Notes: generated by a model not told the origin, from the letters alone. A DNA stretch of 64,000 nucleotides from Octopus vulgaris (GCA_951406725.2 OX597826.1:35836001-35900000); one strand, 5' to 3'; shown: positions 1 to 31,416, counted from the stretch's first letter. A program made the numbers and translations.

Positions 1-1123
1 GATTGTTTGTGACTGTGTATTTTAGTCTCTTTCTCGTGCAGCTTGCACTGATTATAAACAAATGTCACAAGAAATTTATGCATTTCATATTCCTCATTAT
101 AAATTCTAATAGCCGTTTTCCAAACAGCCTCCTTTAACCTTCATTCAGCTTCACTTTCGTACAAAAATAATGACTTTTCAGTTAGAATATTTTAAAGAAT
201 GAATTGTATACAAAATTAGAACCACGTCAACCAAATGACGACATTTTGCTTCATAGGAAATTATGCTAAGATCTACTACTGTCTTTGAAAAAAACGAAAA
301 TGAAAGAAAAATCTGCATATATTAATTGTCTATTAAATGACAATAATATACCACTTAGGTTTATATTTGTTTTCAAAATGTCCACAATATTTCATTGAAT
401 AAATCCTGCTTCAGCAAAATGGAAACATGGCAAATTTTTTTAAAGAGATTCAAAACTAAATGTTTGGATTTTGTCAGAAGTTGGTAATGGGAAGATAAAG
501 AATAATTTGCTAGGAATTCTAAAGAAATGACCCAATGATATAATAATTCATTGCCATTTAAGATCCTGCTTTCTCTTTTTATCCACAATTTTACTGTAAC
601 AGAGAAAATTTATGGCTATTCTTTAATTACTTTGGAATTTTAACTAACGATTTAGAATTTTAATGTAGCTATCAGCAGTGTAGAGTGAATAAATTACAAT
701 ATGATAGCAGGAGGTAGTTTCAAGACTGAAAATATAATGTGAGTTTCTAAAACTGTTAATCCTGGCAGCTTCCACCACCACTAAAAACTAAGAAAATTAA
801 ATAAATAAAAATATAAATTAAATAAATAACTATTAAAAAAAATTCATTTATTTGTAGATCCACTTTTCCATACTACCATGGGTTGTATGCAAATATTGTT
901 AAGGTATTTTTTACAGCCTGATGCCCTGCCTGTTATTAACCTTTAACTGTTTCTCAACTAAAACATATCTTATTCTACACATCTTTCCAAATGTGAATCG
1001 AGTGCACTAATTTTTGACAGAAGAAACAATAACAACAACAACATTCATAGGTCATCACATTTGAAGGCTGCAAATACAAGCAAACATTCAAACCTACGCA
1101 TATGAATTCATATATATAAATAT

Positions 1124-1189
1124 GTGTGTGTGTGTGTATCTATCTATTTATCTATCTGTCTATCTATCTATCTGACTGCCTATTCTGCA

Positions 1190-1246
<57 letters not shown>

Positions 1247-1489
1247 CTGCCTGTTTATCTGTCTATCTATCTGTCTATCACTCTGCCTGTCTCTCTGTCT
1301 GTCTACCTCTCTAACTATCTATCTGTCTATCTATCTGTCTGTCTATCTATCTGTCTGTCTGTCTGCCTATCTATTTATCTGTCTGTCTGTCTGTCTGACT
1401 ATCTATCTATCTGTCTGTCTATTTATCTGTTTATCCATCCATCCATTCATCCATCCATCATTCCATATATATATATATATATATATATA
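1124..1489. repeat. Compound (TG)n/(TATC)n/(TCTG)n/(TCCA)n/(TA)n microsatellite
   Basis: Direct inspection; explains ORFs 1124..1558 and 1126..1314. Confidence 0.95.
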
Positions 1490-1640
1490 GTGAGAATTTA
1501 CAAAAAAACAAAAAACAAAAGATGGGTGTGTAAACAACAAACAGATGTATTAGTTTAGCACTCAACAGAAAGGAACACAGAAATAAACAGGGAGAGAAGC
1601 TAGAAAAGGTTTAGTGGCTAGCAATCTATCATGGTGACAA
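1490..1640 (-). mobile_element. Internally deleted fragment of a Penelope-like terminal repeat (same family as 41280-41487)
   Basis: Reverse complement resembles 41340-41487 (gtgtgtaaacaacaaacagatgtattagttt ... caacagaaaggaacacag); abuts (TA)n; hammerhead segment deleted. Confidence 0.5.
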
Positions 1641-1794
1641 TAGGAAAACACAGAAAGTACAAAAAAGTTTAGAAAAGTTTAAAAGGTTCAAACGTTATGG
1701 TATATTGGAGCAATTTCTCATCAAAGGAAGAGTCCAGTGTAATCCATAGGTAGTAGAGGTGCAGCCAAAATATAGGAGTCCTACATCTAGAGTA

Positions 1795-1945
1795 TTTGAG
1801 TAGTCCTAAGCAGTGCTGTTTTCTGCAAGTGCTCCACCCTTATTTGTTTCATGTACTTCTCAAGATTTTTACTCACTGTTCCCAGGGCTCCAACAGTTAT
1901 TGGTACTACTACCACCTTTTTCAGTGACCACAACTGCTTAATCAT
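1795..1945 (-). mobile_element. R4/Dong-like non-LTR retrotransposon 3' fragment (restriction-like endonuclease C-terminus)
   Basis: Minus-strand translation IKQLWSLKKVVVVPITVGALGTVSKNLEKYMKQIRVEHLQKTALL, typical of the REL-domain tail; abuts an ATT repeat. Confidence 0.7.
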
Positions 1946-1959
1946 CATTATTATTATTG

Positions 1960-2290
1960 CCTTTGCACAGCTTCTAACACTGAAGATGTACTACGAGTGA
2001 ACTAAGGTAACACCTCTTATTTTTCGAGCACCTTCCGGAGTATCTGAGCGGTTCCAAGCAGATTGCAGCCCCTATTTGTTCTATGTACTTGTTGAAATTT
2101 TTACTCACTGTTTCCAGGGCTCCAACAATTATTGGTACTACTACCACCTTTTTCATCGACTACTACTGCTTAACCTCCTAAGCTAACTTGTCATATCTAT
2201 CGACTTTTCTTTCTTCCTTTTCACATACCTTGTTGTCAGCTGGGCATGCTATATCTATGATCCAGCATAGTTTGTTTTCTTTCTCAATTT
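1960..2290 (-). mobile_element. R4/Dong-like non-LTR retrotransposon 3' fragment, second copy
   Basis: Translation IEKENKLCWIIDIACPADNKVCEKEERKVDRYDKLA*EVKQ...KKVVVVPIIVGALETVSKNFNKY, with stops; fused to a long (TAA)n tract. Confidence 0.75.
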
Positions 2291-2360
2291 ATTATTATAA
2301 TTATTATTATTATTATTACTATTATTATTATTATTATTATTACTATTATTATTACTATTA

Positions 2361-2412
<52 letters not shown>

Positions 2413-2480
2413 TACTATTATTATTATTATTAGTAGTAGTAGTATTATTCATCATCATTATCATTATTATTATTATTTCT
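2288..2480. repeat. (TTA)n/(TAG)n trinucleotide microsatellite
   Basis: Direct inspection. Confidence 0.95.
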
Positions 2481-3074
2481 ACTATATCCATAACTCTTAT
2501 TCGCATCTTCAGCTTGACACAATAAAACAACACATTTTACAAATAGGAGAACCACTTTAAATCATGGAATTCAATGCCAGGATTCTTTACTTGATAATGT
2601 TGTAATTGCCATTCACAGAATGAATGAAGAATAAGCAAGGCTTGTCTACTATAAAAATTCTTATCAATAGTTAAATTTACAAGTTTTATGCAACATTTTA
2701 CTGATACCAAATAGTTTTCGAAAATCATTATTACAATCTTAGTCAGGGCTTTTGAGAAAACGCGATAAATATATACAATTTGCATAATGGGAAAATAGTT
2801 TTGGTAAGCCATATGGAAGCAAATAATAATAGTGTTGTTTGCTTTGATATTTTACATACATGGCGAACTCTTGTAAAAGCATTGTGGAATCGTATAGAAA
2901 TTGCAAATAATATTGTGCAAATGAGAAAAGAACAAGATGAAATGTGCTTATTAATGTTTCGTTTGCAGTTTACAGCAGAGATAAGCATTTTTTTTTTCCA
3001 ATTTTTAATAATTTTTAATATCTTGACAAACAATGCAAACATTTGTACAATCAAGTATAATGTGATATATTGTA

Positions 3075-3165
3075 TGTGTTTGTGTGTGTGTGTGTGTGTA
3101 CATGCCTGCTTGTGTACATGTTTGTAAGGATGTGTGTGTATATGGGACTCGTTTTCTTTCTCTTT

Positions 3166-3237
<72 letters not shown>

Positions 3238-3620
3238 TTATATATATATATAATATATAATACATACATGTGTATTTACATATATATGTATATATATATA
3301 TATGTGTGTGTGTGTAAATATATATATATATATATATATATGGGTATGTGTATATATATATTGGTATGTATATATATATAAACACACACACACACACACA
3401 TATATATATACATACATATATATCATGTATATACACTTACATATATATGTATATCCATACACATGTTCAATTATGTATACACAACATATATATATATGGT
3501 GTATGATATATTGCTCTATAATAGTGAGTGATATTTGTATGTATACAAACACACACATACATGCATATGCACCTGCAAACACACACGTGCATGTGTGTGA
3601 ATGTGTTTGTATGTATTAAG
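3075..3620. repeat. (TG)n/(TC)n/(TA)n/(CA)n compound microsatellite region
   Basis: Direct inspection. Confidence 0.9.
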
Positions 3621-4084
3621 ATGAAATCCATTTATCTAGAAATATCAAAGACTATTAACTGTTATCATGCTGCTAAAGCAATTGTACGATTGAATATATT
3701 GAAATGACTTCATGAAATAACACACACACATACGCGCACACACACACATACACACACATACATACACATGCACACAACTGCAACTGCACACACGGCCGTA
3801 AAAGAAAGTACATCGACGCATCTTATCACTATGTAACAATTATGACAAACCATATCTGAGTGTTAGCAAAGAGTCTAACAAAACAATTACAGTGTGTAAA
3901 TATATATATGTGTGTGTACATCTTGCTGACTAATCAAGCATGCACTGAAACAGACTCACGAGGAAAGTAGTCACTTGGAAAACATTATATCGGTTAAATT
4001 GAAATGTATATTCATTATACATACATATTTTATTTTTCATACTGTGTCTCAAAACAGACATGCATACATATAAGTGTAGGTTTA

Positions 4085-4343
<259 letters not shown>

Positions 4344-5095: not shown

Positions 5096-5600
5096 TAAGG
5101 AGACTTCAGGGCATTTAAGAAAATTGATTCCCTGGGTATCTGTAGGTTTTTCGCTCTTGTGCTTCTTCCACAAGCAAACACTACTGTCTCTGACAACCCT
5201 CTTATTATTCCACTGCACTTCTTGTGTGTTAATAACTTGTAATGAGTATAATTATTCATTGATTTATGTGTTTGTTTGTTTATTTATTTATACAAATGGT
5301 TGAGAATTTAAGAATTTCACTAAGCAACCACAAAGCTTCATGGTCAGTTCCACTTTATTGCACTGTTGATGTCAGTGCACCAGGGTGGATGGATGAGCCA
5401 TTGTGCCAGCTGATTACACCAAAAGTCTATGGGGTTGGTGCACCTGTCGATTCCAGCCTGTCTAGCTAAGCAGTAGTTGACAAAAGCAAGCAACAAATCT
5501 GTATGTCTATGTTCAAGTCACATGAATATATCAACAGGAGACATTAGCTGAACGCTAATCCACTCTTAATTATTAAACATTTTAATAATAATAATATCAG

Positions 5601-6275
5601 TACATTATTTACAGTGGATGGATAGGTGTTGTCATCTTGTTTGTTGTTACCACAACGTTTTAAATGATGTACTCTCCAGCCTTCATCAGGTGTTCTGGTG
5701 GAATTTCAAACCCAACCCTTTATTTGACTAATGGGGTATAGCCAATCTTGTATAGCAAAATGGAGACCACCTCCAGCTGTGGAATGAAGTTAAAATAATC
5801 AACAGAGAACACCATTGGAAAATATGAAAATTAAAAGAGGTTCTGCATATGCTAGGACACTATAACCTCCTAAGCAGGTCTAGTGCAGATATAAATATAA
5901 TATGGGAGGGAACCAGTATTAAGAAGAGGTAAAATACTAGGTTTATAAGCTCTAAAATTCACTCTATAATTGCCTGTGGGCATGTAGAGTAGTGGATAAG
6001 AGCGCAGGCTACTAACCCTCAGATCTTAAGTTCAATCGCAGACAGAGACTTGAAAAATAATACCAACAGAAAAATAACAGCAGCAACACACCTTAGAAAT
6101 GAGAACAGTGTACCCTGTTAGTCAAATAAAGGGTTGGGTTCGAAATTACACCAGAACACCTGATGAAGGCTGAAGAGTATACCAGCCGAAACGTGATTAC
6201 AACAAACAAGATGAGGAAGATATATATCTGTCTATTGTAAATAATGTACAGAATTCTTCATCCCCCAAAATACAG
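5601..6275 (+). mobile_element. Non-autonomous Penelope-like element: inverted 5' tail copy, tRNA-like head, hammerhead-bearing tail
   Basis: Inverted arms ~5601-5738 / 6111-6249; tRNA-like segment ~5985-6050; flanking duplication aataat(a/g)atatcagta at 5587-5602 and 6276-6291; homologous to 28105-28564. Confidence 0.7.
6155..6198 (+). ncRNA. Minimal type I hammerhead ribozyme motif (cleavage-site region degenerate)
   Basis: AACAC-CTGATGA-A-GGCTG(10 nt)CAGCC-GAAAC-GTG; sister copies have AAAC-GTT-GTG, giving a palindromic stem III and a CAC/GTG stem I. Confidence 0.6.
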
Positions 6276-6309
6276 AATAATGATATCAGTAACACTATTA
6301 TTATTAAAC

Positions 6310-11961: not shown

Positions 11962-12377
11962 TTGAGTAATTGAATGAATTATCTTATTAAGGATAATTCG
12001 AAAGATAACCGATACCTGGGTAGCAAATTCACATCAGAAAGAACACGGTTGAAGCTATGTCCCTAGGGCATAGACTACGTGTCTTCGTGTGGAAATTTGT
12101 ATGTTTATTTTAAAATTATAAGTATATGAAAGAATGGAGTTGAACGACTAGTTAACAAATATCCTTTATTCTCGACATATGTTTCGAAGGCTGCATATTC
12201 CTATTTCCGAAGGAATAAGGAGTACATTATGCAGATTTCTCATCAGGAAAATCAAGGAACTTATGTCGACCTTCGGAATTAGGAATATGCAGCCTTCGAA
12301 ACATATGTCGAGAATAAAGGATATTTGTTAACTAGTCGTTCAACTCCATTCTTTCATATACTTATAATTTTAAAATA
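11962..12377 (-). mobile_element. Young Penelope-like terminal fragment with 108-bp inverted repeat, inserted in (TA)n
   Basis: 12106-12213 and 12270-12377 are reverse complements with one mismatch seen; hairpin-rich segment 11975-12100; (TA)n on both sides. Confidence 0.75.
12163..12257 (-). ncRNA. Type I hammerhead ribozyme, apparently intact
   Basis: Minus strand: CCTTGATTTTC-CTGATGA-GAAATCTGCATA...TATGCAGCCTTC-GAAAC-ATAT-GTC-GAGAATAAAGG. Stem I pairs at 10 of 11 positions, the core is complete, the triplet is GUC, and stem III is palindromic (ACATATGT). Confidence 0.85.
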
Positions 12378-12427
12378 TATATATATATATATATAAATTA
12401 TGTTGTCTCACATGAAATGTATTTTAA

Positions 12428-12580
12428 ATGGGTTGGCGTTAGGAAGGGCATCCAGCTGTAGAAACTCTGCCAAATCAAGATTGGAGCCTGGTGCAACCAT
12501 CTGGTTCACCAGCCTTCAGTCAAAATCGTCCAACCCATGCTAGCATGGAAAGCGGACGTTAAACGATGATAATGATGATA
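12428..12580 (+). mobile_element. SINE family C / RTE-related 3' end with (GAT)n tail
   Basis: gggttggcgttaggaagggcatccagctgtagaaac...gcggacgttaaacgatgat, repeated at 41088-41257. Confidence 0.8.
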
Positions 12581-13045
12581 TATATACATATATATGAGGA
12601 TGTGTCAGTAAACATATATGTGTGTGGGTGTGATATATGCATGTGTGTTAGTTTGTATGTTTTTTTGTGGGTGGGTTGGTGTATATGTGTGAGTGTGCAT
12701 GCACATATACATGTGTGTATCGTATATTCAATCATATATATTTTGTTTTATCATATAGTCTTCAAAAGGTTTTCATTATCTCTTTGTTAAATTTAAAAGT
12801 AAATTAAATTTATATTTGACCAAAATATGTTTATTAATTTGTGGTGGTACATTAAATATAGTTCTTGACAAATTATTTTATTTTAATATTTTATTAATAT
12901 TGAATCTATATTTTGCATCATCATCATCATCATCATTTAATGTCCATGTTTCCATGGCTCAGACAGAATTCCTCAAGATGAATATTCTACATCTATATGC
13001 CCTTCCTGTCAACAACCATCACATATTTTCAAGCAACATAATATC

Positions 13046-13082
<37 letters not shown>

Positions 13083-13099
13083 GTGTCTATCTTATGTCT

Positions 13100-13322
13100 T
13101 TACTGCCCAAATGGGCTACACACGGAGGGGACAAACAAGAACAGACAAAAGCATTAAGTCAATTATATTGAGCCAAGTGTGTAACTGGTACTTGTTTAAT
13201 CAACCCTGAAAAGATGAAAGGCAAAGTCGACCTCGGCGGAATTTGAACTCATAACATAAAGACAAACAAAATACCACTAAGCATTTCATCCCACATGCTT
13301 ATGTTTCTGCCAGCTCGCCACC
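13100..13322 (-). mobile_element. tRNA-derived SINE family A variant
   Basis: gatgaaaggcaaagtcgacctcggcggaatttgaactc...tctgccagctcgcc. Confidence 0.75.
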
Positions 13323-13451
13323 TTCTATCTGTGTCTATCTGTCTGTCTGTCTTTCAATCTGTGTGTCTATCGGTGTCTATCTATCTGTCTGTCTATCTAT
13401 CAATCTATCTGTCTATCTATTTATCTCTCTCTCTCTCTCTATCTATCTGTC

Positions 13452-13494
<43 letters not shown>

Positions 13495-14314
13495 TAATAA
13501 ATAGAATATATGCATACATACATACATATATGTACGTACCGACATCTACATGTATATATACATGCATATATGAATATATATATGTGAGTACAAGACACCA
13601 CAAATAGACGTAGAACTCAACGAAAAACGGGGAATTTTCCTTGTATTGTTTGTCTTGTACACTATTTTTTCGTTGTTAAAAAAGACCGTTTCCATGTTTG
13701 TTTGTACGTTTTCGTTTCTCGTTGAGTTCTACGTCTATTTGTGGTGTCCTGTACTCACATATATATATTTATATATGCATGTGTATATACATGTAGATGT
13801 AGGTACGTACATATATGTATGCATATATTTTATATCTTAATTTATTGCATGACTGAGCGCCCTCGCGTCGTTTCGTTTCTTTTCTGTTCTCCAAGTAAGT
13901 TTTTATATATAATTATGACGCGAAACTCTGTAACCCTGTCTGTCTTCCTCTTTGCCTGTCTCTCTCCTTCCTAATTTTCACCCTTTCTGGTTTCCTTTCC
14001 TCTCTATCTCTCACTCCTCCTCCTCTCTCACACAGCCGAGTCGACCACTTCCTTTCGCTGGCGGCCTCCTACAAGTGAACATGTTTTTTTCCTGTGCTCT
14101 TGAATTTTTCCATCGTCTAGGCTAAAAAAAGGCCCTCACTGTTTGTTTCCTTGTCCTGTTTTTATTCATCGTGGCGTTGTGTACTGTGAGTTGCTGTTTA
14201 TTAATTGAGTGTTCATTTTATTGTTGAACGTTTTGTTGTACGGTTTTTTGGTGGTTGTCTGTCTGTGTTGAGACAGACAAGGAAGAAGTGGACTACCCCT
14301 CCCTAACGGGAGAG

Positions 14315-15617
14315 ATGGCCAGACGAAGTATGTTCGAAAGTGTGTCGGATTTATCGACTTCTGAAGAAGAGCTTGAGAAGGCAATAAAAAAGATGGACAA
14401 ACAATTAGGAAACACTAATGCAGGAGTGAAAAAAAAAACGGAGGATAAAGAAATAGACTTGGCCAAACTGCCAAGCTACCGGGAATTCATTAAAAAGGAC
14501 GGCGGTGAAGTGGAGTTGTCACCGCCACCAAAACGAAGAGAGTGGTATGAACGAAGGACCATCACATACCGGGTTTATGCCAATGGAAAGAAGAAAATTG
14601 AAATAGTCAGTATGGAATTAATAGAAGAAGCACTGAAGAGAACGGAGGAAGATATAATATTCTTAGCAAGAGGCATGGATTTCGGTACTGTGGTGGTCCA
14701 GTTCAGGAACGATAGTGAGGCGAAGAAAATGGCTGCCAGAGCGGTGAGACAGATAAGAGTTCCTTCTGCCCTCATATCTGAATAGGAAAACTACCCGGAT
14801 CAGGGTGGAGGAAATACCCCCAAATGTTGATGGAGAATGGATAGTGGCAGCCATAATCAGCGGATGTGAGGAAGAGCTGGACATCCTCCATGCTATTATG
14901 AAGGATGAAGGCTGGAGGGGTGCAGTGCTGGATTTAAACGTGCAAGCGGAGGCTGAAACGTTGGAAAAATTAAGGGAGAACATCAGAATGGGAGGTGTCA
15001 TTATGAGAGTGTGGGTGGAGGGAAGAGCTCCACGCTGTTACAAGTGTGGCCTGAGAGGTCACATAAGAGCTTACTGCCCTCCTCCATCAAAGGAAATTGA
15101 TATGGAACCTCAAAGAAGAGGAACAGAAACCATCGGAGAAAGAAACAACGGAAGAGGAGGAGGTTCAAAAGGAATGGGAAGAAGGCAGAAAAAGGAGGAA
15201 GAAAAGGAGAAAATTAAATAGTGTTGAACCCCAATCCACCCCAACACCACCCGCACCCACTGCATCCCACCATTCCCCTGCAGACAGTGAACCCACCCAC
15301 TCCCCACCAACAAGAAAACAAAAAAAAGAAGCAAACAGTCAAGATACCACAAAAAAAAAACTAGGCCCAATTTTTTAGGTATTTCAAGGAGAAATGACAT
15401 AAAAAAAATAATGAAGGACTACCAATGGTGTAAAAAGGGCTGTAGTAGGTATGCGGTAATTTCGGAAGAGCGAATAGGTGAGTTCGTGGAAAGGTGCGAA
15501 AAGAAGAACTGTGAAATGTATAGAGTGGAAATAAATAACGAGACAAGAACGGAAATGGAAAAGAAATTCGAGAGGAAAATAGAAAGCAAGGTGTATTACA
15601 TTGAGGATAAAGTTTGA
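14315..15617 (+). pseudogene. Frameshifted gag/ORF1-like nucleic-acid-binding protein (RRM-like region plus CCHC zinc knuckle)
   Basis: Joining ORFs 14255.., 14805.., 15097.. and 15411.. needs about 3 frameshifts; contains RIRVEEIPPNVDGEWIVAAI and VEGRAPRCYKCGLRGHIRAYC (CX2CX4HX4C), as in L1/Tx1-type ORF1 proteins. Confidence 0.75.
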
Positions 15618-15938
15618 AGGACAGGTAAGTGATGCTAGCGGAGGATGCCGTTAGTATCACTTTCATCTATCATTTTCATATTTCATTACCCATATTTATG
15701 TAATTGTGATGTTTTATGTCCCCAATGTTTGTATTGTCCCCTCTGTGTAGCCCTTTATGGGTTATAAAGAATCATGTCCTGTTTTTATTCTTTACTTGTA
15801 CTGTATTTTTTTGTATTTGTTTTTTTATTTGTATTGTTTTTACGTCCTGTTTTTGTCACATTTTTTATTTCCTTGTTTTTACCCCTCTGCAAAGGAATTT
15901 TATTTAATTCTTTCGCAGGAAGAGTTAGTTCGACGAGT

Positions 15939-16000
15939 CGTGTTCTGTCCTTACCTTCGAAACACGCATGGAGTCAAACTAGGGACAGCTGATGAAGGGG
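15939..16000 (+). ncRNA. Non-circularly permuted hammerhead ribozyme candidate
   Basis: CGTGT-T-CTGTCCTTA | CCTTC-GAAA-CACG | 13 nt | TAGGGACAG-CTGATGA-AGGGG; all three helices can form, but the GAAA strand precedes the CUGAUGA strand. Confidence 0.6.
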
Positions 16001-16259
16001 AATCTTCCTTTTATTGTTTGTCTTCTACTCTGTTTTTTCGTTGTTAAAAAAAGTCCGTTTCCATGTTTGTTTTTACGTTTTCGTTTCTCGTTGAGTTCTA
16101 CGTCTATTTGTGGTGTCCTGTACTCACATATATATATTTATATATGTATGTATGCATATATTTTATTTATTAATTTATTGCATGACTGAGCGCCCTCGCG
16201 TCGTTTTGTTTCTTTTCTGTTCTCCAAGTAAGTTATATATATATATATGTGTGTGTGTG

Positions 16260-16520
16260 TGGAGGTGCAATGGCCCAGTGGTTAGGGCAGTGGACTCGCG
16301 GTTTCGATTCCCAGACCGGGTGTTGTGTGTGTTTATTGAGCGAAAACACCGAAAAAGCTCCACGACGCTCCGGCAGGGGGGGGGGGGGTGATCCCTGCTG
16401 TACTCTTTCACCACTCCTCCTCTAAATCTTTCTTCCGTTGGCCTGCTCGCTTAGCCAGCGGGGTGGCATCATTCGAAGGCTAAAACAATGCGAACGCATT
16501 GTGACCAGCGATGTGTAGCT
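16260..16520 (+). mobile_element. tRNA-derived SINE (family D)
   Basis: A-box tggcccagtgg and B-box gtttcgattcc at the 5' end, followed by a GC-richer non-tRNA body. Confidence 0.7.
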
Positions 16521-17018
16521 TCACTAAGGTGGAGGTAATAATAATAATAATAAAAATATTAATAATAATAACAACAATCATTTCTACTATCGGTACAAGG
16601 CCTGAACCTTTGAGAGGAGGTGGGTAGTTGATTGCATATACACGACTGGTACTTATTATTTCAACCCTGAAAATATAAAAGGCTACATCAACCTTTGCAG
16701 AAATCAAATTCTGAACAAATCTTACCAAAGTCAGTGATAAAAGACTGTGAATTGACCTCAAATCTCAGCCTGTACCTATTAAGTACAAATTGTCCTTTAA
16801 TCAAAGCCACGAGGAAAAAGAGAGACAAATAGAAACCTTGTGAGATTTGAACTTAAAACATCAATAAATGCCACCACATTCTGTAAAATATAAACCCTTT
16901 TCCAGTTCTTACCATTCCACTGGTCTTCATTGCCTCTATATTCATTATTAACCATTGCTAGAAGCCATCAAAGTGCCTTCTATGTGGTTCACTGACCAGC
17001 AAGAAATAGTAAGATATA

Positions 17019-17226
17019 CTTTTCTTCTCTAGGCACAAGTCCCAAAATTTTTAGGGAGGGAGCTAGTTGATTAGATCGACCCCAGTATGCAACAGGTACT
17101 TAATTTATTGACCCCCAAAAGGATGAAAGGCGAAGTCGACCTCATGTGAACTCAGAACATAGACAGACGAAGTACTGCTAAGCATTTCACACAGTGTGCT
17201 AATGTTTCTGCCAGCTCGCCACCTTG
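17019..17226 (-). mobile_element. tRNA-derived SINE family A with target-site duplication
   Basis: Full family A sequence flanked by the direct repeat agaaatagtaagatata. Confidence 0.85.
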
Positions 17227-17248
17227 AGAAATAGTAAGATATAGATAA

Positions 17249-17593
17249 AGGCATGGTTGTGGGGTTAACAAGTTTTTTTTGCAGTCATGAAGTTTCAGGT
17301 TCAATCCCTCAGCAGGAAACCTTGTCTTCTAGAACAGGCCTAAGCCAAGCAATGCCTTGTGAGTAAATTTGGGAGATGGAAACTGTGGAAGCCTGTGTGT
17401 TTTCCTGTTTGTCCCCCACCCCCACCAGTGCTTTACAACTGATGTCTGTTTGTTTACATCCCCGTAACTTAGCAGATTGGCAAAAGAGATGGAAAATAAA
17501 ATCATAAGTACTGGAGTTGATTTATTTGATGAAACCCTTCAAAGAGTTGCTCCAGCATGGTTGCAGTCCAATGACTGATAAAGTAAAAGAATA
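17249..17593 (+). mobile_element. tRNA-derived SINE family B (degenerate, full length)
   Basis: Collinear with 21158-21551. Confidence 0.7.
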
Positions 17594-19029
17594 ACGTATA
17601 ATAGATAAGATAAATATAGGAAGGCAAGATGGAATGGTCGCATCTGGAATGTCTTTGATCTTAATTCTACAGACCAAGGGTTGATATATAGGTTACACAA
17701 CAACAACAACCTTCATTTATGTAAGCCATCATAGTGACGCAGGGTCTACATCTATGATTACGGTCAATTGAATTTATTCAAATACATGTTTCATCCATAT
17801 TGTATTGACATCTAGAAGTCAAGAACCAAATTAAACACCAGCCAAGTTTGATCACAGAATGCAAGGGGAGTTGAAATGAAATACTTTAAAGTGTTTAGAC
17901 AGACTCAGCCGTCTGCGGCTCTTGAATTACCAAAAGACATCATCATAGATACAAGACAGACCAAACTTTAGCAAGACTTGATTATAAGGAAGACTTGGTA
18001 TTCATACTTGCATAACAGCCAAGTTAGCCGGTTCGTTTGGGAGGAAATTGAATTTCCAAATTGTTCAAATGTACACCATAAATATTGTATAAGAAGTCAA
18101 TATCTAAATTTAATAAAACTTATAAATGGAGTTAAAGATTTAGACTACATGACTGCAAGAAATATGTAGCTGGACAAATTAAATCATAATTAGGTGTTTT
18201 CCTCTACTTCTTCTTCGTCTCCTTCTTTGAATCTAATATTATACAAGAAGGAGGAAGATCAGCCAAACCTTTCAATTTTAATTCATTCAGTATCAACACA
18301 CACACAAATATGCACACACACACCACACACACACACATATGCATATAAATATTCATTTATCTATAGACACACATATGAATATATATATGTACAGCAATCT
18401 GTCTATCAATCTATTTATCTAATATATATATATGAAATGTATGTATGTATAATATATATAATAGCTGAAACAAATTGGGTATATGGTTGTCTGTAACATA
18501 CTGTGTATGTAGTTTAGTATATATCTATACATGTGTATGTATATATGTACATGTGTATATATATATATATGTGTGTGTATATATGTATATATCTCTGTCT
18601 ACAATATCTATCTATTAATTGATCTCTCTCTTATCCTCTGTCTTACTATCTCATTATATATATATATATAAATACACACACACACACACATACATGCGTG
18701 TGTGTGTGTGTGTGTGTACATAAATATTTCCATCTTTCCATCAACACACACAGAGGAATGTATAATATAGTGATATCACCGAATATAATGGTTATCATTG
18801 GACATTTTGCATGCTATATTCAATAGTGGCAACTATGTATGTGAATGTGCATATGTGTGTGTTTATACATACATATATATGTATTTACATCTATCTATCT
18901 TTCTACTGGACCTGACCTGGATGAAGAATTTGGAGTTCAAGTTCTAATTCATTTGAACACTACTTTATGCTTTTGATACCAAGCATATCTAGTTCACCAC
19001 CATCTTCTATCTATGTGTGTGTGTGTCTC

Positions 19030-19595
19030 TCTCTTACTCCTTTCTTTCTCTTTTTCTCTCTCTCATTGCTCACATGTGACCATCGTCCATCTTCCTTTAC
19101 CTCATGTGACAATCTCTCTTTTCCTACATGGAAGTTCAAAAGACTGGCCACTTTTGCTCTTTCTTTTTTCTTTTCTCTTTTCACTATTTTCCTCTCGTTC
19201 TGGTCTAATGACCCTGCATGTTTGTTTTCGTTGGGTTTCCTTGTACATCCCCCCTTTCCTGTTTTTGTACTCCCCAACTTTGACACTCCATAAATCCTAA
19301 ATTTTATTTTAGATTTTATGGGAGCAACTGTCTTTGAAAACTCATATTGTCATTGAATGCTTGAAATGAAGAGTAGCTAGACAGCGACAACTGATGAAAG
19401 GTCCTTTCTCTATGTTTACTTGTCCTGTTTTCCATTTTTCTTGTGTTGTTTGCATATTTAACTCGTTTGTGTACATATTTCATGTTGTTTGCACAGTTGG
19501 TGATATATTTATGTGTGTATGTATGTATATATATATATTATTTATTATTATTATTATTTAGTTGAATGCCACACATCCATTTCCAAGTAAGTTTA
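19030..19595 (+). mobile_element. Degenerate non-coding relative of the 13.5-16.2 kb element
   Basis: Pyrimidine-rich leader, permuted hammerhead motif at 19342-19400, T-rich tail, and the same terminus ccaagtaagtt before (TA)n. Confidence 0.55.
19342..19400 (+). ncRNA. Non-circularly permuted hammerhead ribozyme candidate, second variant
   Basis: TCAT-A-TTGTCATTG | ..CTT-GAAA-TGA | 12 nt | CAGCGACAA-CTGATGA-AAG; same topology as 15939-16000 with different paired bases. Confidence 0.5.
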
Positions 19596-20020
19596 TATAT
19601 ATATATATATATACATACATACACAGATACACAGGTACACATATACAAACATACATACACATATGCATACACACACACACACTATATATATATGCATTTG
19701 TTCTTTACTCATTTATTATTGTTCTCATTTTAACTCTTGTCCATTGTCTGGAAATCTTTCATCACACATCTGTGACCTCTTCAGTGACACTTTTCATCTT
19801 TGTGTGTGCTCTTGCTCCACTCATTTCATAAATATATATTTATATATATAATCAAAATAAGCAACAAGAATATCTTCAGTAATTTGGTACGATCGTTTCA
19901 CGCTACATCATTTTATTAAACATTGTAAGTATTACAACAGTTTTAAACAGATAACACCATACAAAATTCTGGTGCATCTGACTTAAGTACCATATACATT
20001 TGAATTTAAATTTTGCTGAA

Positions 20021-20059
<39 letters not shown>

Positions 20060-20169
20060 ATGTATATATATATATATATGTATATGTATATATATGTATA
20101 CATGCATATCCAGGACATCAAAAATGTTGACAAACTACTAAATTCTTTGAGAAGAATCTGTACAAGACA

Positions 20170-20664
20170 TGCAATAATGCCTCATATTTTTGAGGTTACT
20201 ATTTTAAGTGATTGTTTTTTGGGGGGCAGAAGATGCATTTACACCCAGAATATTCTTGATTCCATTGCAGAAATACTTTTTGCATTCAAAACCCTACAGT
20301 TTCCTGTAGAACTGAGTTCTTACAATGTCTTTAAGTAAATGTCAGGAACAAATTTGATCTATTATTGAGCTACAACTCAAAGAATATTGTTTTTCTCTCG
20401 TGGGTAACTGTATATTACATGTACAAGAGTAGGAAGTTCACATGTTGTTTTTCATTCATGCTCCTTCTGGAAAAACACACGTAACATTGTTTATGAGGAA
20501 GTTCTGCCTTTATACTAAATAGTAAAAAAGAGGAACAAATAACACAATTAGGAGTTGAAGGTGACATGGTACTGTAAAATGGGAAACCTACAAATGAAAT
20601 GCAAAAATGTATGTAGCAAAAGCAAAACCGTTTTCTACAGGCTGTTGCCCAAGCAACACTAAGC

Positions 20665-20672
<8 letters not shown>
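20170..20672 (+). mobile_element. Helitron 3' remnant (PIF1-type helicase C-terminus plus degenerate terminal hairpin)
   Basis: Frameshifted translation MPHIFEVTIL...EDAFTPRIFLIP...FAFKTLQFPVELS...MSLSKCQEQ...CFS.RG*LYITCTRVGS; ends gttgcccaagcaacactaagcaac. Confidence 0.8.
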
Positions 20673-20711
<39 letters not shown>

Positions 20712-20759
20712 TTATATCTATTTATATATATATTTATATATTTATATCTATTTATATAG

Positions 20760-20800
<41 letters not shown>

Positions 20801-20813
20801 CTATTTATATAGA

Positions 20814-20854
<41 letters not shown>

Positions 20855-21057
20855 CTATTTATATAGATATTATATATATATATATGTATATATATATATT
20901 TATATCTATTTATATAGATATATATTATATATATATTTATATATATATTTATATCTATATATAGATATTTATATATATATATATATTTATATATTTATAT
21001 ATATATATATATATTTATATCTATTTATATAGATATTTATATATATATATATATTTA

Positions 21058-21090
<33 letters not shown>

Positions 21091-21140
21091 TTATAGATAT
21101 GTATATATATAAATTTATATATTTATATATATATATATAT
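20672..21140. repeat. (TA)n-derived minisatellite with recurring tttatatctatttatatagata unit
   Basis: Direct inspection. Confidence 0.9.
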
Positions 21141-21157
21141 GTGTGTGTATTCATATA

Positions 21158-21551
21158 GGGGCAGGAGTGGCTGTGTGGTAAGTAGCTTACTTACCAACCA
21201 TATGGTTTCAGGTTCAGTCCCACTGTGTGGCACCTTGGGCAGATGTTTTCTACTACAGCCTCAGGCGCTGGCCAAAATCTTGTGAGTGGATTTGGTTGAT
21301 GGAAACTGACAGAAGCCTATCATATGTATGTGTGTGTGTGTTTATGTGTCTATGTTTGTCCCCCCAACATCGCTTGACAACTGATGATGGCATGTTTACG
21401 TCGCTCTAACTTAGCAGTTCGGCAAATGAGACCAGTAAGATAAGTACTAGGCTTACAAAGAATAAGTCTTGGGGTTGATTTGTTCGAATAAAAGCGGTGC
21501 TCCTGCAGGGCCTCAGTCAAATGACTAAAACAAGTAAAAGAATAAAAGAAC
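21158..21551 (+). mobile_element. tRNA-derived SINE family B, full length
   Basis: ggcaggagtggctgtgtggtaagtagc...ggttcagtcccactg, internal (TG)n, tail aagtaaaagaataaaaga. Confidence 0.85.
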
Positions 21552-21579
21552 ATATATAGAGTGAGAGAAAGAGAGGGAC

Positions 21580-22072
21580 TGGGGTGGCAGTGTGGTAAGA
21601 AGTTTGCTTCCCAACCACATGGTTATGGGTTCAGGCCCACTGCATGGCATCTTGGACAAATGTCTTTTACAGTAGCTTTGAGTTGACCAAAGCCTTGTGA
21701 GTGGATTTGGTGAACAGAAACTAAAGGAAGCCCATCATATATAGCTATGAGTTACTCTGGCCATGCTAGAGCACTGCCTTGAAGAATTTCGGTCAAATGA
21801 ATCAACCCCAGGACTTTTTTTTCTTAAGCTCGGTACTTATTATATTTGCTTCTTTTCCTGAGTTGCTAATTTACAGGGATGTAAACACACCATCAGCGGT
21901 TGTGAAGTGATGGTGGGCACCTAACACAGTCACAAAGATACACACATACACACACACACACATATATATATATGCATATGACACATTTCTTTCAATTTTT
22001 GTTTACCAAATCCACTCACAAGGCTTTGGTTGGCCTGAGGCTATAGTAGGAGACACTTGCCCAAGGTGCCAC
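21580..22072. mobile_element. Two partial family B SINEs in opposite orientation
   Basis: 21580-21740 is a plus-strand head; 21755-22072 is a minus-strand body. Confidence 0.7.
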
Positions 22073-28034: not shown

Positions 28035-28730
28035 TGGTGAGCTCTCAGAATTGTTAGCATTCTGGGCAAAATGCTCAACAGTGTTTCGTCTTATTTACAT
28101 TAGGTACATTATTTACATTTGATGGATATTTGTCCTCATCTTGTTTGTTGTTAACAGTGTTTTGGCTGATATACCCCCAGCCTTCATTAGGTGTCTTGGT
28201 GAAATTTCGAACCTGGGTTCTCATTCCTAAGGTATTCCACTGCCTGGAATCAAACTTGGAATCTTGGGGTTAGTAGCCCACAAGCAAATGGCATAGTGGC
28301 TAAGAGTGTGGGCTACAAACTCCAAGATTCCAAGATTGATTCCAGGCAGTGACCTGAATAATAATAATAATGATAATAATAATAATAACATTGAAAAATA
28401 CCTTAGGAATGAGAACCCAGGTTCGAAATTTTTCTAAGACAGCTGACGAACGCTGGAGGGTATATCAACCAAAATGTTGTGTGTTAACAACAAGCAAGAT
28501 GAGGACAAATATCTGTCAAATGTAAATAATATACATAATTCCTCATCTCTTAAATATAGAACTGCAGTGTTTTGTCTGTCTTCACATTCTGAATTCAAGT
28601 TCAGCTGAGGTCAACTTTGCTTTTCATCCCTTCAGGGTTGATAAAATAAGTACCAGTGGAGTGCTGGGGTCGATGTAATTGATTTGCCCCTCCCTCGAAA
28701 TTGCTGGCCTTGAGCTCAAATTTGAAATCA
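28035..28730 (+). mobile_element. Family A SINE interrupted by a Penelope-like insertion
   Basis: Head 28035-28091 continues at 28565-28730; duplication cagtgttt(c/t)gtct at both junctions. Confidence 0.7.
28105..28564 (+). mobile_element. Non-autonomous Penelope-like element with tRNA-like head, (AAT)n linker, degenerate hammerhead tail and inverted 5' copy
   Basis: Inverted arms 28105-28236 / ~28397-28533 and 28238-28281 / ~28307-28351; head tggcatagtggctaagag...gattccaggcagtg; homologous to 5601-6275. Confidence 0.75.
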
Positions 28731-30933: not shown

Positions 30934-31416
30934 CGAGGGAGAGTCAAAAAGTAATGCCATTTTGTTTAGGACAGGTATAATTACCAACACAGGAACATGT
31001 ATTATACATCAAAATGAAGCTGGTCCTCTGTGGATCACATCCCTACTTCTCAACATAGTCACCATTTCTCTCAATATCAATGTTCCACTTTTGAATGAGA
31101 GCATGTATCCCTGCCCCGTAAAATTCTTCAGACTATCATCTCTTCGACACCACGAAAGAGGGCTTGAGAGGCAAACGTTATTCCAGTGACAAGGAAGTGG
31201 AAACTGTAGTGAAGGAGTGGCTCAAAGAACAGTCAACAGAATTTTACAGGGCAGGGATACATGCTCTCATTTGAAGGTAGAACATTGCTATTGAGAAAAA
31301 CAGTGACTATGTTGAGAAGTAAAGATGTGATCCACAGAGGACCAGCTTCATTTTAATGTATGATACATGTTCCTGTGTTGGTAATTATACTCATACTAAA
31401 CAAAATGGTATTATTT
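30934..31416 (+). mobile_element. Mariner-derived fold-back element with ~180-bp inverted arms
   Basis: Starts TA-CGAGGG; 30947-31127 pairs with 31238-31416; 31131-31322 encodes a mariner C-terminus DYHLFDTTKEGLRGKRYSSDKEVETVVKEWLKEQSTEFYRAGIHALI...DYVEK. Confidence 0.8.

What the first reader, a model, noticed from the sequence alone, without database searches (positions are those of the whole stretch)
13490..16234. RT-less Penelope-architecture element carrying a gag/ORF1-like zinc-knuckle gene
Seen: ~240-270-bp direct terminal repeats (13629-13902, 15997-16234), an inverted partial copy at the 5' end (13490-13629), (TA)n flanks, no TG..CA LTR ends, no poly(A), no RT, and one frameshifted ~430-codon ORF with an RRM-like segment and CX2CX4HX4C. 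Established: partial-tandem pLTRs with an inverted 5' piece and hammerheads are hallmarks of Penelope-like elements, which normally encode RT with or without GIY-YIG, whereas CCHC ORF1 proteins are typical of LINE/LTR elements. Inference: a non-autonomous, ribozyme-processed retroelement that encodes only an RNA-binding protein and borrows a PLE RT, or one half of a bipartite system.
Basis: partly seen in the sequence, partly recalled or inferred. Interest (0 to 1): 0.8.

Follow-up and report, generated by a model that had tools for sequence, protein, structure and literature searches.

The report
Penelope-like element with rearranged hammerhead RNA
A broken copy of an abundant jumping-gene family, likely from an octopus, has no copying enzyme of its own, encodes only a predicted RNA-binding protein, and carries a rearranged, predicted self-cutting RNA fold that also appears in published Naiad elements, which likely supply the missing enzyme.

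Summary
The anatomy is real: direct repeats (96% alike), an inverted 5' piece, (TA)n flanks, no RT, and a broken ~434-codon ORF. The ORF belongs to a large octopod family with two predicted RRMs and one CCHC knuckle (LINE type-I ORF1-like, not retroviral gag) and shows purifying selection among copies. New here: there is no canonical hammerhead. A permuted hammerhead-like motif (15919-15995; cleavage block, then GAAA, then CUGAUGA, with the stem II partner upstream) sits behind a predicted intron. It recurs with compensatory changes in a second, ORF-less family member in the window (19020-19594) and, by eye, in published Naiad consensus sequences, including two from Octopus. Read contigs restore the one stem II pair this copy has lost (~99% of depth, 4 of 4 runs). 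ORF-less forms exist and the 3' end is far more abundant than the ORF. Best reading: a non-autonomous Naiad-type Penelope-like element with an ORF1 module, likely mobilised in trans. Main rival: an ORF1-only LINE derivative nested in a non-coding element with a 16-nt target duplication. Cleavage, splicing, expression and the partner RT are untested; no genome was available.

The parts
13457..13490 (.). (TA)n target, left flank
   Evidence: sequence
13489..13629 (-). inverted, truncated copy of the terminal repeat, lacking its last 57 nt
13629..13901 (+). 5' pseudo-LTR (3' end of an upstream, 5'-truncated copy); starts just after the CUGAUGA box, so it holds no whole ribozyme motif
13895..14035 (+). 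predicted intron 1 (GTAAGT ... 85% pyrimidine tract ... CAG) across the repeat/body boundary
   Evidence: same layout as Chlamys-3_cRei and Penelope (PMC8557442); splicing untested
14036..14167 (+). decayed paralog of the ribozyme segment and its T-rich downstream motif (module A head)
   Evidence: 83% over 35 nt to 19397-19431, E 9e-5; alignment
14152..14167 (+). first copy of a 16-nt exact repeat (second at 15775-15790); junction of ORF-less forms
14315..15617 (+). broken ORF1-like gene: RRM1 (in P0001), RRM2 + CCHC (in P0002), low-complexity linker, small C-terminal region (P0003); may extend to TGA at 15630-15632
15625..15918 (+). predicted intron 2: donor at the ORF end, overlapping a strong hairpin (15625-15662, z -5.5); second hairpin and AATAAA-like word at 15742-15774 (z -3.5); T-rich tract; acceptor CAG
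   Evidence: splicing untested
15919..15995 (+). permuted hammerhead-like motif: stem II partner 15919-15923, stem III 15939-15943/15962-15966, predicted cut after 15944, stem I 15945-15953/15980-15988, GAAA 15959-15962, CUGAUGA 15989-15995
   Evidence: 15923 G in ~99% of depth; cleavage untested
15997..16234 (+). 3' pseudo-LTR ending in TCCAAGTAAGTT, followed by (TA)n
19020..19594 (+). second, diverged ORF-less family member with the same end word, (TA)n flank and the same motif (19322-19397) with compensatory changes

Best explanation
This is a decayed copy of an RT-less Penelope-like element, likely of the Naiad type, made of two related modules (predicted intron, permuted hammerhead-like motif, body), one of which carries a LINE-type ORF1 gene; it would be copied by a Naiad RT/GIY-YIG protein acting in trans. 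Steps: (shown) partial tandem repeats, inverted 5' piece, (TA)n flanks, no RT, ORF1-like gene under selection among copies, conserved permuted RNA fold; (inferred) transcription starts in the upstream repeat, intron 1 is spliced, the RRM-RRM-CCHC protein is made and coats the element's RNA; (inferred) longer, unspliced RNA that runs through the 3' motif is the template for target-primed reverse transcription into (TA)n, which gives the tandem and inverted ends; (predicted, untested) the motif cuts the RNA after 15944 in intact copies; (inferred) ORF-less forms arise by deletion between copies of a recurring T-rich family motif.
For: PLE layout as described in PMC8557442 section 6 is met. Donor/acceptor pairs frame both modules. 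Stems I+III in exact register: 0 of 5000 shuffles for copy 1, 90 of 5000 for copy 2; a four-strand descriptor finds just these two places in 64 kb, both strands, against a single hit in 3 of 200 shuffled windows (descriptor written after seeing them). Compensatory changes between the two copies in stems I, II and III. The upstream stem II pair missing here is G in 56449 of 57045 (X1), 50820 of 51381 (X3), 3996 of 4031 (X10) and 673 of 673 (X15) depth units. By eye, 7 of 35 DNA passages with CTGATGA in the Craig 2021 supplement show the same four-strand order, among them the ends of Naiad_Ovul and of the entry before it (Naiad_Obim by file order); these two also have a GTAAGT donor after the RT stop and an AG just before the motif. 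Both are listed with (TA)n preference. ORF variants: 20 of 34 at third positions, 17 synonymous against 8.9 expected, 27 of 10000. Other ORF ends abut the same 15617+ segment (loose ends in X10, X15). No RT or endonuclease domain in 30 longer hits of 150. pLTRs can mobilise unrelated intron-bearing genes in trans (PMC3846280).
Against: No autonomous partner was identified by sequence; the link to Naiad is by RNA architecture read by eye, and Craig et al. say cephalopod Naiads are long inactive remnants. No listed contig piece spans ORF and terminal repeat together, so co-occurrence in other copies is not shown. A 16-nt exact repeat brackets the ORF cassette and empty-site joints exist, as a nested insertion would give. 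This copy has U at position 17 and the module A motif is decayed. In an anole PLE, hammerhead cleavage was not needed for insertion in vitro (PMC11167929). The minimum-energy fold does not give the motif (z -0.89; it cannot draw pseudoknots).
Confidence: 0.6

Rival explanations
1. Nested composite: an ORF1-only derivative of an L1/Tx1-type LINE (HAL1-like, 14168-15774) inserted into a non-coding Naiad-type element and made a 16-nt target-site duplication; the ORF is a passenger of the Penelope-like shell.
For: 16-nt exact repeat, reached by 1 of 2000 and 4 of 2000 shuffles. Joint 14151 to 15775 with 16 letters fitting both sides in X3 (depth 941) and X15, a matching loose end in X10, and three similar diverged joints in X1 and X3. 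Depth steps up 5-8 fold at 15775 in X3 and X15 and about 4-fold in X10. Hairpin plus AATAAA-like word just before the second 16-mer; one X3 loose end continues differently after it. RRM+CCHC is the type I ORF1 of L1/Tx1 (PMC5203782); HAL1 encodes only ORF1 (PMC5753468).
Against: The core of the 16-mer (TCCTGTTTT) occurs 5 times in 64 kb, all inside the two family members, so it is a recurring family word and the shuffles overstate its rarity. No poly(A). The donor at the ORF end pairs with an acceptor outside the cassette, and octopus Naiads have the same donor-tract-acceptor-motif order after their RT stop (by eye). No depth step at 15775 in X1.
Confidence: 0.22
2. Deletion product, or detached first half, of a two-gene autonomous PLE in which this ORF1 lies upstream of an EN-RT gene reached through the donor at the ORF end.
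For: Perfect donor over the ORF end; 2 of 9 homologs with long C-termini end in GK, as a GGTAAG donor would give (5 of 123 overall). Chlamys-2_cBra has an upstream zf-CCHC ORF (PMC8557442).
Against: No RT-fused homolog among 30 longer hits or in two weak searches of longer proteins. Contigs bearing five unnamed family proteins or their clusters are 1.7-2.2 kb, too short for an RT gene, though they may be cut. The parts of the Naiad_Ovul consensus read showed no such gene by eye.
Confidence: 0.13
3. LTR-retrotransposon or DIRS remnant with a gag gene; the hammerhead-like words are chance.
For: CCHC knuckles occur in gag; direct repeats flank the ORF.
Against: No TG..CA ends; the predicted fold is tandem RRM, not capsid; repeats differ at their 5' start as truncation gives; motif covaries and is restored by family variants.
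Confidence: 0.05

Closest known systems
Naiad clade of Penelope-like elements (Craig et al. 2021, PMC8557442; passages, section 6, supplement parts seen)
   Same: Partial tandem with inverted 5' piece and tail, (TA)n target, no canonical hammerhead, GAAA 30 nt before CUGAUGA ('HHR_half_core' in Naiad_Ovul), donor-tract-acceptor before the motif
   Different: No GIY-YIG/RT ORF; carries an ORF1-like gene instead; no long sequence match to a Naiad was tested
Type-SGC (non-circularly permuted) hammerhead ribozymes (Eckert et al. 2023, PMC10085705; parts 3-5 of 8 and passages read)
   Same: Order cleavage block, GAAA block, CUGAUGA block; stem I joined to stem II by a very short linker
   Different: There stem II is completed by the letters after CUGAnGA; here the better supported partner lies 24-25 nt upstream of the cut. 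They found none in genomes of known organisms; this one is in an animal retroelement. Theirs were shown to cut; this one is untested
Pseudoknot-containing hammerhead (Zhan et al. 2024, PMC11300833; part 1 of 6 read)
   Same: Helix II is made with a remote strand
   Different: Pistol-like connectivity with a stem-loop supplying the pseudoknot; not the S-G-C order
Chlamys-2_cBra (PMC8557442, passage)
   Same: PLE with a zinc-knuckle ORF
   Different: Autonomous, alga, canonical type I hammerhead
pLTR-framed host genes in Adineta vaga (PMC3846280, passages) and Terminons (PMC6431247, passages)
   Same: Non-RT genes with introns carried between PLE repeats; hammerhead-marked modules
   Different: Single events or telomeric EN-less giants; here a multi-copy family with a retroelement-type ORF1 under selection
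HAL1 half-L1 elements (PMC5753468, passage); Drosophila HeT-A (recalled, no call)
   Same: Non-autonomous retroelements that encode only ORF1/gag-like protein
   Different: LINE-mobilised, poly(A)-tailed, no pseudo-LTR with inverted piece, no hammerhead-like motif
Non-LTR retrozymes (bioRxiv 10.64898/2026.07.22.740005, part 1 of 5 read)
   Same: Non-autonomous PLE derivatives with hammerheads
   Different: Non-coding tandem units with type I hammerheads

Membership tests
Penelope-like elements | PLE-clade RT, with or without GIY-YIG | tested here: not met
   no RT or GIY-YIG word in six frames; so at most a non-autonomous member
Penelope-like elements | partial tandem pseudo-LTRs | tested here: met
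Penelope-like elements | inverted 5'-truncated copy and one-sided tail | tested here: met
   13489-13629, 57 nt short of the end; published tails are 30-40 nt
Penelope-like elements | retained intron across the repeat/body boundary | tested here: inconclusive
   signals present; no raw RNA reads to show splicing
Penelope-like elements | type I or minimal hammerhead in the repeat | tested here: not met
Naiad clade | N-terminal GIY-YIG, CxC, RT with IFD | tested here: not met
   no such ORF
Naiad clade | (TA)n target | tested here: met
Naiad clade | 3' end shared in sequence with an autonomous Naiad | tested here: inconclusive
   same RNA architecture and splice layout by eye; only short words shared; no alignment could be run
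type-SGC hammerhead | blocks in order S, G, C with CUGAnGA, GAAA, stems I and III in register | tested here: met
type-SGC hammerhead | stem II completed by the letters right after CUGAnGA | tested here: inconclusive
   4 weak pairs possible in both copies; upstream partner gives 4-5 pairs and is favoured by family variants
type-SGC hammerhead | cleavage triplet NUH with H = A or C | tested here: inconclusive
   GUU in copy 1, AUA in copy 2; family letter at 15944 not among the rows shown
type-SGC hammerhead | fourth helix joining stems I and II | tested here: inconclusive
   several 6-7 pair candidates, none clearly shared
type-SGC hammerhead | site-specific self-cleavage | not testable with these tools
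   needs in vitro transcription
type I ORF1 of non-LTR elements | RRM(s) followed by CCHC | tested here: met
   model of homolog P0009, pLDDT ~90 over residues 70-290, top matches tandem RRM proteins; Atlas neighbours include ZCCHC3 RBD1/RBD2 + zf-CCHC at 0.90
HAL1-like half-LINE | ORF1 only | tested here: met
HAL1-like half-LINE | poly(A) tail | tested here: not met
HAL1-like half-LINE | target-site duplication at varied sites | tested here: inconclusive
   16-nt repeat and empty site, but the word recurs in the family
non-LTR retrozymes | non-coding tandem units with type I hammerhead | tested here: not met
LTR retrotransposons | TG..CA ends, capsid-type gag, pol | tested here: not met

The most novel reading that the evidence does not exclude
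Naiad-type Penelope elements, reported to lack hammerheads, use a new four-strand, non-circularly permuted hammerhead, and in octopods the lineage has split into a bipartite system: RT/endonuclease Naiads plus a high-copy satellite that supplies a captured LINE ORF1 RNA chaperone under selection, with ORF-less satellites riding on both.
Probability: 0.3. Interest if true: 0.85.

Novelty: new variant of a known kind. Interest (0 to 1): 0.66.

Why it matters
It offers a testable answer to an open point in the Naiad paper (why these very successful elements seem to lack hammerheads, and what the 'half-core' words are), and would place a non-circularly permuted hammerhead, so far reported from metatranscriptomes only, in thousands of animal genomic copies where covariation and cleavage are easy to test. 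It also shows a PLE-type shell carrying a LINE-type ORF1 that stayed under selection without its own RT, which bears on how retroelements exchange modules and on the many 'CCHC-type domain' gene models in octopus annotations that are probably transposon ORFs.

Tried and rejected
No genome is held for this window, so copies could not be collected. Rfam: only AT-rich hairpin microRNA models below their thresholds in 12500-17500 and nothing at gathering score in 64 kb. Word-index protein searches for longer forms found nothing (weak by the tool's own note) and a region search found 2 proteins. Metagenome scans with P0002 (599 pattern matches, none confirmed) and with a motif-plus-end pattern (0), and a prokaryote genome scan (0) gave no loci. 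No RNA holder on record was listed; X15 is RNA only by guess, so nothing is said on expression. Depth is summed contig depth and no copy number; the bin 16165-16234 was skipped by the tool, so tandem junctions were not seen. The C-terminal piece folded poorly alone (pLDDT 49.5) and the Atlas gave only leads under 0.9 for the matching part of P0006. Type II reading of the motif rejected (no stem I). My first idea that the 16-mer is surely a target duplication was weakened. Literature: ten searches showed no paper joining Naiad or octopus PLEs with a permuted hammerhead, or describing an ORF1-only PLE family; Repbase, Dfam and most subscription papers could not be seen, nor bioRxiv supplements or the supplements of Eckert 2023, which may bear on this. 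Look-ups of earlier findings by sequence and place were empty.

Full report
Observation. The direct repeats are 13629-13901 and 15997-16234 (227 of 237 aligned letters identical, about 36 nt missing in the 3' copy), the inverted piece 13489-13629 matches 13713-13844 (124 of 132) and stops 57 nt before the repeat's end, and (TA)n lies on both sides. This is the arrangement that Craig et al. 2021 describe for PLEs: partial tandem, inverted truncated copy, one-sided tail (PMC8557442, section 6). No RT or GIY-YIG word occurs in six frames. No genome is held.

The protein. The ORF (14315-15617, 434 codons) is in pieces. A frameshift at about 14746-14763 is clear from homologs; a stop at 15219-15221 and shifts near 15205 and 15330-15375 are read by eye against P0005. 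The middle piece finds 171 proteins at E up to 0.001, 150 listed, some of them unrelated multi-knuckle proteins. Of 20 looked up, 9 carry a species name, all octopods (Octopus sinensis, O. vulgaris, O. bimaculoides, Argonauta hians), so the host is likely an octopus. A model of the natural homolog P0009 has pLDDT near 90 over residues 70-290 and matches tandem RRM proteins; the Atlas lists CCHC clusters and ZCCHC3 RBD1/RBD2 at 0.90-0.92. RRM plus CCHC is the type I ORF1 of L1/Tx1-type LINEs (PMC5203782, passages), not a capsid-type gag. None of 30 hits picked for length has an RT or endonuclease domain. Of the 40 variant rows shown (397 more hidden), 34 fall in the ORF pieces: 20 at third positions (p 0.002), 17 synonymous against 8.9 expected (27 of 10000; one place lies in a piece of doubtful frame). 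The gene was therefore under purifying selection among copies.

The family. Twenty of 24 listed runs hold part of the stretch, under four organism codes. In four laid runs contigs that match the locus letter for letter have depth 71-84 in X1, the ORF mostly 200-4300, the knuckle far more, 15619-15852 about 17000-22000 and 15853-16164 130000-420000. Depth is no copy number, but the 3' end is clearly a very abundant repeat and the ORF has several close and many distant relatives. Joints 14151 to 15775 (X3, X15), 14123 to 15822 and 14154 to 15798 (X1), 14163 to 15820 (X3) and a loose end in X10 show ORF-less forms. Loose ends at 15617 show other ORF ends joined to the same downstream segment. No listed piece spans ORF and repeat, so their linkage in other copies is inferred, not seen.

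Splice-like signals. The repeat ends in GTAAGT; an 85% pyrimidine tract and CAG follow at 14035. A second perfect donor lies over the ORF end (15625), inside a strong hairpin (z -5.5), with an acceptor at 15918. An intron across the repeat/body boundary is known from Penelope and Chlamys-3_cRei, and in D. virilis the intron ends at the hammerhead (PMC4209133, parts 1-2 of 4). Splicing was not tested.

The RNA motif. Rfam finds no ribozyme and no type I, II or III junction exists in the element. A scan that allowed any strand order found a junction in the order cleavage block, GAAA, CUGAUGA: stem I 9 pairs, stem III 5 pairs, both in exact register (19 of 3000 loose shuffles, 0 of 5000 strict shuffles). 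This order is the type-SGC hammerhead that Eckert et al. 2023 showed to cut and found in no genome of a known organism (PMC10085705). A second, diverged, ORF-less member at 19020-19594 has the same end word and (TA)n flank and the same junction with changed pairs in stems I and III and an AUA site (alone it is weak, 90 of 5000). Reading the Naiad consensus DNA in the Craig supplement by eye, 7 of the 35 DNA passages with CTGATGA shown (three of them near-identical entries) have this order, and in all seven the strand before GAAA pairs over 6 letters with a strand 21-29 nt upstream of the cut rather than with the letters after CUGAUGA. That made a prediction for the window: CCTTC before GAAA should pair with 15919-15923. 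It does for 4 pairs, and the fifth is broken by A15923; the read contigs have G there in about 99% of depth in all four runs. Copy 2 has 5 such pairs with three changed on both sides. A remote helix II partner has a precedent in the pseudoknot hammerhead (PMC11300833). The two octopus Naiad entries also show RT stop, GTAAGT donor, T-rich tract, AG, motif, about 70 nt, end, the order seen here after the ORF1. The segment 14036-14167 is a decayed paralog of the motif region. Against activity in this copy: U at position 17, the lost pair, only one whole motif, and the report that hammerhead cleavage is not needed by an anole PLE in vitro (PMC11167929).

Mechanism. The unit reads as two related modules, each a predicted intron, motif and body; one body is the ORF1 gene, the other the non-coding end. 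The best reading is a non-autonomous Naiad-type element whose RNA would be reverse-transcribed into (TA)n by a Naiad protein in trans, as pLTRs of Adineta mobilise unrelated genes (PMC3846280), with the ORF1 protein as RNA chaperone. The main rival is a half-LINE nested in a non-coding shell: a 16-nt exact repeat brackets 14168-15774 (1 and 4 of 2000 shuffles) and the empty form exists. But the core of that word occurs five times in 64 kb, always inside the two family members, there is no poly(A), and the donor inside the cassette matches an acceptor outside it in the Naiad manner. A two-gene autonomous parent is a third option (Chlamys-2_cBra precedent).

Earlier notes. After this reading was formed, one search showed unchecked AI notes from other genomes on a Naiad with an L1-ORF1-like gene and a rearranged hammerhead, on twisters in other Naiads, and one that doubts hammerhead-like words in a moss element. 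They are leads, not support.

Verdict. Non-autonomous PLEs, ORF1-only retroelements, PLE cargo genes and type-SGC hammerheads are each known; their union in an abundant octopod family, and a four-strand permuted motif shared with Naiads, I did not find in ten searches, with Repbase and Dfam unseen. New variant of a known kind; interest 0.66.

Noticed in passing
window 12095-12388: 119-nt arms, 96% complementary, around a type I hammerhead-like junction on the - strand at 12246: a different, canonical PLE remnant
   Followed up: partly
window 5597-6277, 28099-28561: further palindromic PLE-type remnants with CTGATGAAGG ... CCGAAAC words
   Followed up: no
window 16257-16520: tRNA-like head with A- and B-box-like words right behind the element, probably a SINE (read by eye)
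   Followed up: no
window 13155-13326, 17014-17231 and at least six other places: an abundant short interspersed repeat of about 130-230 nt
   Followed up: no
window 15291-15617 and P0006 295-386: small C-terminal alpha/beta region of the ORF family with no named family; Atlas model aligns weakly to ferredoxin-like folds, under the bar
   Followed up: partly
window 19571-19581: ACATCCATTT shortly before the end of copy 2 also stands shortly before the end of the Naiad_Ovul consensus (by eye); may be chance
   Followed up: no
P0133, P0134: gene models that fuse this ORF with a Helitron helicase or an SNF2 helicase, probably mis-joined insertions
   Followed up: no
window 30949-31416: another long palindrome of unknown kind
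   Followed up: no
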